64,000 nucleotides of DNA, taken from the NCBI GenBank assembly GCA_009914755.4, contig CP068257.2, forward strand, positions 40,608,001-40,672,000. The letters run 5' to 3'. The position numbers and the translations under genes are program-made. The DNA is from the human T2T-CHM13v2.0 reference genome, Homo sapiens. A model generated the notes under the pieces. The model ran no database searches, was not told the DNA's origin, and saw only the letters and a program-made list of their open reading frames with translations. Each line of letters begins with the position of its first letter. Position 1 is the first letter of the stretch. This document shows positions 16,790-17,420 of this stretch, piece after piece.

Positions 16790-17420
16790 TGGACGCAGGG
16801 TGACGTTCGCGCTCTTGCCCGAGCTCAACGCCCGGGAGAAAACAGCGCTGCCGGAGCCCCTCGCGCGCGCAGGTGCGGGCGGGGCGGGTGCGCGCTGCCG
16901 CGCGTGTGCAGCGCCCGCCCATCCGCCGCCACCGCCCGCGCCGGGGTTACTACCGGTCAACGCTCGCTAGTAACCTCCGCGGCGGAGCGGCGGCGCGGGG
17001 AGCGGCGCGATTGGCTGCGGGCGCCCCGCGCTGTTGCCAAGCGCGAGGAGGCAGCTGCAGCCCCGAGCGGGGTCGCAGCCTCCCTGGGACAGGGGCGGCC
17101 CTATGCATAGGGGATCACCCGGGCCATGCAAATCCCGGCGCCCCGCGCGTGCTGGTGTTCTCCTCCCCAGGTCCAGGAACACCGGTCCAGGAAGCCTGAG
17201 AGCGCTGGCAGTAGGAAGGGTCGCCAGTGTGGACCTGAGGGTGGAGGTGTTGCCACCCGGGGCGGCCTGCGCTCCATTCAGGCTTGAGCGGTGACTGGGA
17301 GACCCCGGGAATGGAAATGGCGCTCAAATGCTGGTGTGGTGTCCGCAGGGGAACGGCCCGCGGGTGTGTGGAGTCTGCGCCCCTGTGGCTTCAGCTGCGT
17401 CGGGGGACTGCGGGAATCTT
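16790..17420. promoter_or_regulatory. ABCG1: Intragenic CpG island with promoter-like motifs (inverted CCAAT 17010-17014, GC box 16881-16888, octamer ATGCAAAT 17126-17133). Candidate alternative or internal ABCG1 promoter
   Basis: About 630 bp of very CpG-rich sequence (gcgggcggggcgggtgcgcgctgccgcgcgtg ... gcggcgcgATTGGctgcgggcgccccgcg ... gggccATGCAAATcccggcgccccgcgcg) surrounded by CpG-poor intron DNA. Confidence 0.6.
16944..16959. promoter_or_regulatory. ABCG1: DR4 element GGGTTActacCGGTCA inside the intragenic CpG island. ABCA1-type LXRE candidate
   Basis: 14/16 identical to the ABCA1 promoter DR4 read as AGGTTActatCGGTCA. It is embedded in an 8-bp inverted repeat, GGTTACTA(16945-16952)...TAGTAACC(16969-16976). 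Confidence 0.5.

What the first reader, a model, noticed from the sequence alone, without database searches (positions are those of the whole stretch)
16944..16977. ABCA1-type DR4 (GGGTTActacCGGTCA) nested in an 8-bp inverted repeat inside the intragenic CpG island
The element is 14/16 identical to the ABCA1 promoter LXRE, AGGTTActatCGGTCA as I recall it, with both hexamer cores conserved. It is followed 9 bp later by TAGTAACC, the inverted complement of GGTTACTA, so the DR4 is flanked by a palindromic arm. A near-copy of the ABCA1 LXRE inside a promoter-like CpG island of the partner efflux gene ABCG1 would give a simple mechanism for co-regulation by oxysterols. Whether this equals a published ABCG1 LXRE I cannot confirm.
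Basis: partly seen in the sequence, partly recalled or inferred. Interest (0 to 1): 0.65.

Follow-up and report, generated by a model that had tools for sequence, protein, structure and literature searches.

The report
Conserved LXR site in ABCG1 island
A 16-base docking site for the cholesterol-sensing receptor pair LXR/RXR sits in a CpG island inside the human ABCG1 cholesterol-export gene; the sequence is real and conserved, but this kind of control of ABCG1 has been known since 2001.

Summary
GGGTTACTACCGGTCA is at 16944-16959 (+). Its inverted arm TAGTAACC is at 16968-16975, 8 nt after the repeat rather than 9. The window is human ABCG1, hg19 chr21:43,638,054-43,702,053, and the element lies in a true CpG island in the intron after the exon at 7728-7973.

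The element is 14/16 identical to the published ABCA1 LXRE. It has the same half-sites as the SREBP-1c LXRE probe. It shares an 18-mer with the only DR4 in a printed mouse Fasn promoter fragment.

Both half-sites are kept in a tamarin and in an unidentified non-primate mammal, while the spacer varies. The 40 nt around it are the best-conserved stretch of a 2.4-kb interval.

The most likely reading is an LXR/RXR response element serving an internal ABCG1 promoter or enhancer. Binding, transcription start and ligand response could not be tested here.

The palindrome is statistically unremarkable as a hairpin. Only its outer 6 bp are conserved, which looks like a third, inverted half-site.

LXR control of ABCG1 through several intronic LXREs and an internal promoter is already published (Kennedy 2001, Sabol 2005). 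Those papers were not readable, so I could not confirm that this exact element is one of theirs. Interest is low.

The parts
16944..16959 (+). DR4 element GGGTTA-ctac-CGGTCA, a candidate LXR/RXR response element. The 5' half-site is 16944-16949 (RXR side, inferred). The spacer is 16950-16953. The 3' half-site is 16954-16959 (LXR side, inferred) and begins with a CpG at 16954-16955.
   Evidence: Sequence. Unique in the window and absent from 100 shuffles. 14/16 to the ABCA1 LXRE. 18-mer shared with the mouse Fasn promoter DR4. Half-sites conserved in tamarin and in L007.
16968..16976 (-). Inverted arm TAGTAACC (16968-16975). On the - strand it reads as a third half-site, AGGTTA (16976 down to 16971), 11 nt from CGGTCA.
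   Evidence: GTAACCTC is kept in human, tamarin and L007, while the inner two arm positions change.
16939..16981 (.). Extended imperfect palindrome with 17-nt arms (14/17 complementary) and a 9-nt centre.
   Evidence: DNA fold -10.1 kcal/mol, z = -1.65, with 13 of 200 shuffles folding as well. It is not distinctive as a structure.
16926..17049 (+). Conserved block holding the DR4, GTAACCTC, an inverted CCAAT box (GATTGGCTG, 17009-17017) and GCGCTGTTGC.
   Evidence: Three-species alignment. Human 16926-16965 is the most conserved 40-nt window (88%) of the 2.4-kb human/L007 interval, which is 40% identical overall. ATTGG at 17010.
16780..17170 (.). Intragenic CpG island, promoter-like, with GC boxes at 16877, 16882, 16915, 16932 and 17093 and no TATA box.
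   Evidence: GC 75%, CpG observed/expected 1.05, 58 CpGs. Motif positions.
2444..2459 (-). Sister element in intron 1, AGGTAActgtCGGTCA. This is the published 'ABCG1 LXRE' probe site.
   Evidence: The probe GGCAAGAGGTAACTGTCGGTCAAATCCT from PMC6959160 maps exactly to 2438-2465 on the - strand. The DR4 is identical in loci L002, L003, L009, L010 and L011.
8397..8412 (-). Sister element, the consensus DR4 AGGTCAgtctAGGTCA, 435 nt after the exon-2 PEGPWW anchor at 7961 (423 nt after the exon end at 7973).
   Evidence: It is a DR4 in human, L003 and the mole L002, weakened in tamarin, and degenerate in L007 and in two rodent-like contigs.
10258..10273 (-). Sister element, the ABCA1-like DR4 AGGTTActgtAGGGCA.
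   Evidence: 3 mismatches to the ABCA1 LXRE. Identical in tamarin; no match found in L007.

Best explanation
The element is a binding site for the LXR/RXR heterodimer, that is, an LXRE of the DR4 class. It lies in the conserved core of a CpG island inside human ABCG1, about 50 bp upstream of a conserved inverted CCAAT box.

Shown here:
- The DR4 anatomy.
- Its near or complete identity to LXRE sequences printed for ABCA1, SREBP-1c and Fasn.
- Conservation of both half-sites with a variable spacer across primate and non-primate mammals.
- Its position in a CpG island.

Inferred:
- RXR sits on the 5' half-site GGGTTA and LXR on the 3' half-site CGGTCA. This is the usual polarity of RXR heterodimers on DR4.
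- Oxysterol or synthetic agonist binding swaps corepressors for coactivators.
- The site then drives an internal ABCG1 promoter in the island, or acts as an intronic enhancer on the upstream promoter, together with the sister DR4s at 2444, 8397 and 10258.
- Because ABCA1, SREBF1c and FASN carry the same site type, one receptor pair co-regulates cholesterol efflux and lipogenesis genes.
For: - DR4 sequence and coordinates.
- Chance: RGGTTACTNNCGGTCA occurs once in 64 kb and in none of 100 shuffles. There are 3 ABCA1-LXRE-like hits against 0.15 expected.
- ABCA1 DR4 TGACCGATAGTAACCT (PMC7545717): 14/16 identical.
- SREBP-1c LXR probe CAGTGACCGCCAGTAACCCCAGC (PMC3909891): same TGACCG and TAACCC half-sites.
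- Mouse Fasn upstream fragment (PMC6156289): its only DR4 is GGGTTActacCGGTCA, and it shares the 18-mer CGGGGTTACTACCGGTCA with window 16942-16959.
- Orthologues: tamarin has GGGTTACTCCCGGTCA. The non-primate mammal L007 has AGGTTACTCTCGGTCA at the syntenic position.
- The DR4 sits in the best-conserved 40-nt window of the 2.4-kb interval.
- CpG island metrics. Conserved CCAAT box and GC boxes.
- Literature: ABCG1 is induced by LXR through multiple LXREs across the gene (PMC5618541 citing Kennedy 2001 and Sabol 2005). T2D-associated CpGs in ABCG1 introns 1-2 lie 'in or near annotated LXREs' (PMC11844604).
Against: - No binding, occupancy or reporter data for this exact site could be retrieved. 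The THP-1 LXR ChIP-seq peak table is cut off before chr21.
- The one 'ABCG1 LXRE' probe printed in the open-access literature is the intron-1 element, not this one.
- No searchable open-access paper prints this sequence as an ABCG1 element.
- Rodent orthologues could not be obtained. The best rodent-like contig (L016) ends roughly 600 bp short of the expected position.
- No DR4 was found in the godwit locus, which carries 8 kb of N.
- That the Fasn DR4 is 'the' FAS LXRE of Joseph et al. 2002 rests on my memory plus the fact that it is the only DR4 in the printed fragment.
- A transcription start in the island was not shown here.
- The DR4 points the opposite way, relative to its gene, compared with the ABCA1, SREBP-1c and Fasn sites.
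Confidence: 0.8

Rival explanations
1. The DR4 is a working nuclear-receptor site, but it is used mainly by another RXR partner, such as RAR/RXR, TR/RXR or PXR/CAR, rather than by LXR.
For: DR4 elements are shared among class II receptors (established knowledge). PMC9600071 states that retinoic-acid signalling acts on DR4 elements of ABCA1 and ABCG1. From memory, Ayaori et al. 2012 reported RAR binding to ABCG1 'LXRE-B' in intron 7.
Against: The half-site pair GGTTA...CGGTCA is the specific variant seen in LXREs printed for ABCA1, SREBP-1c and Fasn. It lacks the T(A/G)AGGTCA extension preferred by TR. Use by RAR would add to LXR use rather than replace it.
Confidence: 0.07
2. The conserved block is a core-promoter module read by factors that are not nuclear receptors, such as NF-Y on the CCAAT box, Sp1, and an unknown factor on the two inverted GGTTAC motifs. 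On this view the DR4 resemblance is incidental.
For: Conservation extends beyond the DR4 to GTAACCTC, GATTGGCTG and GCGCTGTTGC. RGGTTAC is kept on both arms of the palindrome in L007 as well.
Against: An 18-nt identity with the only DR4 of another LXR target promoter is very unlikely by accident. The substitution pattern is that of a DR4: both hexamers are fixed and spacer positions 3-4 are free.
Confidence: 0.06
3. The feature that matters is the palindrome itself, as a cruciform or hairpin-forming structure in the CpG island.
For: There is a perfect 8-bp inverted repeat, extendable to 14/17. The chance of an 8-nt arm next to the DR4 is about 0.004.
Against: The fold z-score is -1.65, and 13 of 200 shuffles fold as well. 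The neighbourhood holds 11 inverted-repeat pairs in 231 nt. The inner arm positions are not kept in tamarin (7/8) or L007 (6/8), and I saw no compensatory changes restoring them. No Rfam family matches.
Confidence: 0.03
4. It is a chance DR4 with no function.
Against: Zero matches are expected by chance. The element is conserved at the syntenic position in two other mammals, inside the best-conserved window of the interval.
Confidence: 0.03

Closest known systems
Fatty acid synthase (FASN/Fasn) promoter LXRE (Joseph et al. 2002, J Biol Chem; attribution from memory)
   Same: The 16-nt DR4 GGGTTActacCGGTCA is identical, and so are two 5' flanking bases, giving the shared 18-mer CGGGGTTACTACCGGTCA. 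It is the only DR4 in the printed 2000-bp mouse fragment. Both elements sit in GC-rich, CCAAT-containing promoter sequence.
   Different: The Fasn element is on the opposite strand relative to its gene. The flanks beyond the 18-mer differ. Fasn has no inverted TAGTAACC arm at the same spacing.
ABCA1 proximal promoter DR4 (TGACCGatagTAACCT; Costet 2000, Schwartz 2000)
   Same: 14/16 identical. The 3' half-site CGGTCA is the same, as are the GGTTA core and the 'CT' start of the spacer. Both genes are sterol-efflux genes induced by LXR.
   Different: The first base (G versus A) and one spacer base differ. The ABCA1 site is antisense to its gene and lies close to a TATA-type start, which I state from memory. 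This one is sense-oriented in a TATA-less CpG island inside the gene.
SREBP-1c promoter LXRE (probe CAGTGACCGCCAGTAACCCCAGC)
   Same: Both hexamers are identical, TGACCG and TAACCC.
   Different: The spacer is CCAG rather than GTAG, read on the strand on which the probe is printed. The target gene is lipogenic.
ABCG1 intron-1 LXRE (window 2444-2459; probably LXRE-A of Sabol et al. 2005)
   Same: Same gene. Same CGGTCA 3' half-site and 'CT' spacer start. Strongly conserved.
   Different: The 5' half-site is AGGTAA, not GGGTTA. It lies 14.5 kb upstream, on the - strand, and outside a CpG island. It is the element actually used as the 'ABCG1 LXRE' probe.
LXREs of ABCG1 intron 7 / the internal promoter (Kennedy et al. 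2001) and LXRE-B of the second intron (Sabol et al. 2005)
   Same: Same gene region. The paper titles, and the fact that multiple LXREs are spread across the gene, are confirmed. That Sabol's LXREs lie in introns 1 and 2 is from my memory of that abstract, supported by PMC11844604, which speaks of annotated LXREs in introns 1 and 2. From memory, Kennedy's LXR-responsive 9-kb fragment was 'intron 7 plus part of exon 8', which matches window about 7974-17100.
   Different: Identity is unverified because neither paper was readable. The perfect DR4 at 8397 is an alternative candidate. However, it is degenerate in L007 and in rodent-like contigs, which fits poorly with a description, recalled from memory, of 'highly conserved'.

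Membership tests
LXR response element (DR4-type LXR/RXR site) | Two AGGTCA-family hexamers as a direct repeat spaced by exactly 4 nt | tested here: met
   GGGTTA-ctac-CGGTCA at 16944-16959.
LXR response element (DR4-type LXR/RXR site) | Sequence agreement with LXRE sequences printed for established LXR target genes | tested here: met
   14/16 to ABCA1. Both hexamers equal the SREBP-1c probe. 18/18 to the sole DR4 of the mouse Fasn promoter fragment.
LXR response element (DR4-type LXR/RXR site) | Half-sites under purifying selection, with a freer spacer | tested here: met
   Three species only. Human has GGGTTActacCGGTCA, tamarin GGGTTActccCGGTCA and L007 AGGTTActctCGGTCA. The site is in the top 40-nt window of 2.4 kb. 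Rodents and birds were not informative.
LXR response element (DR4-type LXR/RXR site) | Binding of LXR/RXR in vitro (gel shift) | not testable with these tools
No open-access paper prints this oligonucleotide.
LXR response element (DR4-type LXR/RXR site) | Occupancy by LXR/RXR in cells (ChIP) | not testable with these tools
   The THP-1 peak table (PMC3295715, Table S1) is truncated before chr21. The foam-cell study has no supplement held as text.
LXR response element (DR4-type LXR/RXR site) | Agonist-dependent transactivation lost on mutation of a half-site | not testable with these tools
   Needs a reporter assay or genome editing.
LXR response element (DR4-type LXR/RXR site) | Lies in or near a gene induced by LXR agonists | tested here: met
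   The window is ABCG1. ABCG1 induction by LXR is documented.
CpG-island promoter (internal ABCG1 promoter of Kennedy 2001) | CpG island criteria: length over 200 bp, GC over 55%, observed/expected over 0.6 | tested here: met
   16780-17170: 391 bp, GC 75%, observed/expected 1.05.
CpG-island promoter (internal ABCG1 promoter of Kennedy 2001) | Conserved core-promoter motifs (GC boxes, CCAAT) | tested here: met
   GATTGGCTG is conserved in all three species. GC boxes are at 16877, 16882, 16915 and 16932.
CpG-island promoter (internal ABCG1 promoter of Kennedy 2001) | A mapped transcription start or first exon (CAGE, 5'RACE, cDNA) | not testable with these tools
   No transcript data are available. 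A protein search with the island ORF found nothing.
Cruciform or hairpin-forming palindrome | Stem stability beyond composition-matched expectation, with arms kept complementary in orthologues | tested here: not met
   z = -1.65, with 13 of 200 shuffles as good. There are 11 inverted-repeat pairs in 231 nt. The 8-bp arm pairing drops to 7/8 in tamarin and 6/8 in L007.

The most novel reading that the evidence does not exclude
The DR4 may be one half of a conserved composite element, RGGTTAC-N3-CGGTCA-N11-GTAACCT, in which two inverted RXR-type hexamers flank one LXR-type hexamer. The LXR hexamer begins with a CpG.

On this reading, the methylation state of this intragenic island would tune LXR/RXR loading and therefore ABCG1 output. 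The island holds cg07397296 about 260 bp away. It lies 1.6 kb from cg06500161, the lead EWAS CpG for triglycerides, HDL and type 2 diabetes. That would give a direct molecular link between the ABCG1 methylation signals and oxysterol signalling.
Probability: 0.1. Interest if true: 0.45.

Novelty: already known. Interest (0 to 1): 0.15.

Why it matters
ABCG1 and ABCA1 remove cholesterol from macrophages. Their joint induction by oxysterol-activated LXR is a central, long-established part of reverse cholesterol transport, so this element adds detail rather than a new principle.

Three modest points come out of the check:
- The site in the island is identical to the Fasn DR4, not merely ABCA1-like. 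This suggests it is a strong site.
- It is better conserved in the species sampled than the textbook-perfect DR4 at 8397.
- It lies in hg19 chr21:43,654,997-43,655,012, inside the CpG island whose shore carries cg06500161. The effect of CpG methylation on LXR binding there is directly testable.

Tried and rejected
Orthologue hunting
- A protein search with the spurious 108-aa ORF over the island, meant to fish orthologous contigs, gave no hits.
- A metagenome scan for GGTTACNNNCGGTCANGCTCGC-type sequence (pattern GGTTACNNNCGGTCAANGCTCGC) returned one bacterial chance match, L014.
- The star-nosed mole locus L002 is 38 kb of N across the intron.
- Contigs L003, L008-L011 and L016 stop before the island. 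L016 ends roughly 600 bp short of the expected position.
- The godwit locus L015 has no DR4 and 8 kb of N.

Literature
- Kennedy 2001 and Sabol 2005 are not held.
- Searches for this DR4, both contiguous and in triplet format, found only the Fasn promoter print.
- Searches for the 8397, 29097 and 33086 DR4 sequences found nothing.
- The LXR ChIP-seq peak table is truncated before chr21.
- The 'human ABCG1' ChIP primers of PMC7545717 do not map anywhere in the window.
- The menin paper's supplement lists no ChIP primers.

Structure and RNA
- The hairpin reading was rejected.
- There is no meaningful Rfam hit.

Other
- There is no DR4 within the 1.3 kb upstream of the exon-1 ATG, even allowing one deviation. 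A 'promoter DR4' cannot therefore lie in that stretch.

Full report
**1. What is in the sequence**

One search shows GGGTTACTACCGGTCA at 16944-16959 on the + strand. The 8-mer GGTTACTA (16945-16952) has its exact reverse complement, TAGTAACC, at 16968-16975. The arm starts 8 nt after the DR4 ends, not 9.

The repeat finder extends the pairing to 17-nt arms, 16939-16955 and 16965-16981. These are 14/17 complementary with 9 nt between them.

**2. Where this is**

A further match at 55158-55310 is 94%.

The bisulfite pyrosequencing assay for cg06500161 (PMC6902418 supplement) maps to 18458-18629 on the - strand. An offset of 43,638,053 is the only one that places cg06500161, cg27243685 and cg01176028 on CG dinucleotides, using their hg19 positions from PMC5618541.

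The window is therefore hg19 chr21:43,638,054-43,702,053, and the DR4 is chr21:43,654,997-43,655,012. It lies in the 45-kb intron after the exon at 7728-7973.

The stretch 16780-17170 is a clear CpG island, with GC 75%, CpG observed/expected 1.05 and 58 CpGs. It has GC boxes and an inverted CCAAT box but no TATA box.

**3. Is it more than chance?**

| Test | Observed | Expected or control |
|---|---|---|
| RGGTTACTNNCGGTCA in the window | 1 match | 0 in 100 dinucleotide-preserving shuffles |
| ABCA1 LXRE with up to 3 mismatches | 3 matches (2444, 10258, 16944) | 0.15; no shuffle reaches 3 |
| 8-nt inverted arm within 40 nt of the DR4 | present | probability about 0.004 (post hoc) |
| Inverted-repeat pairs in the surrounding 231 nt | 11 pairs | – |
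| Single-strand DNA fold of the palindrome | z = -1.65 | 13 of 200 shuffles fold as well |

The DR4 is clearly non-random. The inverted repeat is much weaker evidence.

**4. Comparison with validated LXREs**

- **ABCA1.** The DR4 is printed as TGACCGATAGTAACCT in PMC7545717.
- **SREBP-1c.** The LXR gel-shift probe is CAGTGACCGCCAGTAACCCCAGC (PMC3909891). It has the same two hexamers, TGACCG and TAACCC.
- **Fasn.** The only open-access paper containing the exact sequence is PMC6156289, which prints a 2000-bp mouse Fasn upstream fragment.
  - In that fragment the only DR4, even allowing one deviation, is GGGTTActacCGGTCA.
  - It shares the 18-mer CGGGGTTACTACCGGTCA with window 16942-16959.
  - From memory, this is the FAS LXRE of Joseph et al. 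2002.
  - The ABCG1 element is thus a full copy of one LXR-target DR4, not just a near-copy of the ABCA1 one.

**5. Conservation**

Orthologous DNA was obtained by searching with the exon-2 peptide and fetching the contigs that encode the hits.

| Species | Locus and position | DR4 |
|---|---|---|
| Human | window 16944 | GGGTTActacCGGTCA |
| Cotton-top tamarin | L001 19805 | GGGTTActccCGGTCA |
| Unidentified non-primate mammal | L007 9222 | AGGTTActctCGGTCA |

- The L007 site is syntenic. It lies 860 nt after the last flanking alignment block, against 855 nt in human.
- The L007 exon-2 peptide carries RLSS, as cetartiodactyl sequences do.
- Both hexamers are fixed, apart from G/A at position 1, while spacer positions 3-4 vary. 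This is the pattern expected of a constrained DR4.
- In a global alignment of the 2.4-kb human/L007 interval, overall identity is 40%. The single best 40-nt window, at 88%, is human 16926-16965.
- The conserved block continues through GTAACCTC, GATTGGCTG (inverted CCAAT) and GCGCTGTTGC.
- Only the outer 6 bp of the palindrome, GGTTAC and GTAACC, are kept in all three species. What is conserved is therefore a third, inverted AGGTTA-type hexamer 11 nt from CGGTCA, not a stem.
- Rodents could not be reached. L016 ends roughly 600 bp short of the expected position. The mole locus is mostly N. The godwit locus has no DR4.

**6. Context in the locus**

The window holds a small family of related DR4s.

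- **2444-2459 (-), AGGTAActgtCGGTCA, intron 1.** It is identical in five other mammalian loci, inside a 300-bp block that is 77-93% identical (85-93% in five of the six loci, 77% in the mole). It matches exactly the 'ABCG1 LXRE' probe printed in PMC6959160. It is very probably LXRE-A of Sabol 2005.
- **8397-8412 (-), AGGTCAgtctAGGTCA.** It is a DR4 in human, L003 and the mole. It is weakened in tamarin and degenerate in L007 and in two rodent-like contigs.
- **10258-10273 (-).** It is kept in tamarin only.
- **Upstream of exon 1.** There is no DR4 within 1.3 kb of the exon-1 ATG.

**7. Mechanism**

Shown here:
- A DR4 of the LXRE subtype.
- Its conservation.
- Its position in a CpG island, about 50 bp upstream of a conserved CCAAT box.
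- Its location in a gene known to be LXR-induced.

Inferred from established nuclear-receptor knowledge:
- RXR occupies the 5' hexamer and LXR the 3' hexamer.
- Oxysterol binding exchanges corepressors for coactivators.
- The site then drives either an internal promoter in the island or the upstream promoter by looping, together with the sister elements.

Not shown: binding, occupancy, a transcription start, or ligand response.

**8. What is known, and novelty**

PMC5618541 states that ABCG1 induction by LXR agonists involves multiple LXREs across the gene, citing Kennedy 2001 and Sabol 2005. The title of Kennedy 2001 is 'LXR activates an internal promoter...'. PMC11844604 speaks of 'annotated LXREs' in introns 1 and 2.

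From memory, Kennedy's responsive fragment was 9 kb of 'intron 7 and part of exon 8'. That matches window about 7974-17100 and would include this DR4. Also from memory, Sabol's LXRE-B is a 'highly conserved' element of the second intron. That description fits 16944 better than 8397, given.

I could not read those papers, so whether this exact element is already published remains unverified. Either way, the kind of element and the mechanism are textbook knowledge. I rate it already known, with low interest.

**9. Residual novel reading**

The conserved three-hexamer arrangement, and the CpG at the start of the LXR hexamer, lie in the island that holds cg07397296. That probe falls at window 17222 if the position printed is in hg38 coordinates; the build offset I used is from memory. 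The island is also 1.6 kb from cg06500161. This leaves open a methylation-sensitive composite LXRE. It is speculative, and I put it at about 10%.

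Noticed in passing
window 2438-2465 (-): The intron-1 DR4 AGGTAActgtCGGTCA (2444-2459) is the exact site of the 'ABCG1 LXRE' probe printed in PMC6959160. The DR4 is identical in five other mammalian loci. It is probably LXRE-A of Sabol 2005.
   Followed up: yes
window 8397-8412 (-): A consensus-perfect DR4, AGGTCAgtctAGGTCA, lies 435 nt after the exon-2 PEGPWW anchor (423 nt after the exon end). It is a DR4 in human, L003 and the mole, but weakened in tamarin and degenerate in L007 and in two rodent-like contigs. 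The best-looking site is therefore not the best-conserved one.
   Followed up: yes
window 10258-10273 (-); 29097, 33086, 47228, 60316: There are further DR4-type matches: AGGTTActgtAGGGCA, AGTTTAtaatAGTTCA, TGGTCAggcaAGTTCA, AGTTAAgatgAGGTCA and AGTTAAaatgGGGTCA. Only 10258 was checked. It is kept in tamarin and was not found in L007.
   Followed up: partly
window 18534, 4313, 15181, 17222: Array CpGs from lipid and type 2 diabetes EWAS map here. cg06500161 is at 18534, 1.6 kb downstream of the DR4. cg27243685 is at 4313 and cg01176028 at 15181. cg07397296 probably falls at 17222, inside the island; that mapping uses a build offset recalled from memory.
   Followed up: partly
window 49130-49871: A minisatellite of 33.7 copies of a 22-nt unit, TGGGTCTGGTCTGGGTTCTGTC, with 83% matches. 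It explains the AT skew of -0.72 in that kilobase.
   Followed up: partly
window 40300-40560: A pyrimidine-rich, low-complexity stretch of CCATCCCTCC-like repeats. It explains the GC skew of -0.415.
   Followed up: no
window 17103-17133: The island contains a palindrome, TATGCATA (17103-17110), and a perfect octamer, ATGCAAAT (17126-17133), downstream of the CCAAT box. The octamer region is not alignable in L007.
   Followed up: no
window 17029-17038: The 10-mer CGCTGTTGCC is also present in the printed mouse Fasn promoter fragment, downstream of its DR4. This is probably chance.
   Followed up: no
whole window: The 'human ABCG1' ChIP primers given in PMC7545717 (TCAGGATCTGGATGGTGAATG and CACAGTGGGGAAGTAAGGCA) match nowhere in these 64 kb. 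They do not target any of the DR4s described here.
   Followed up: partly
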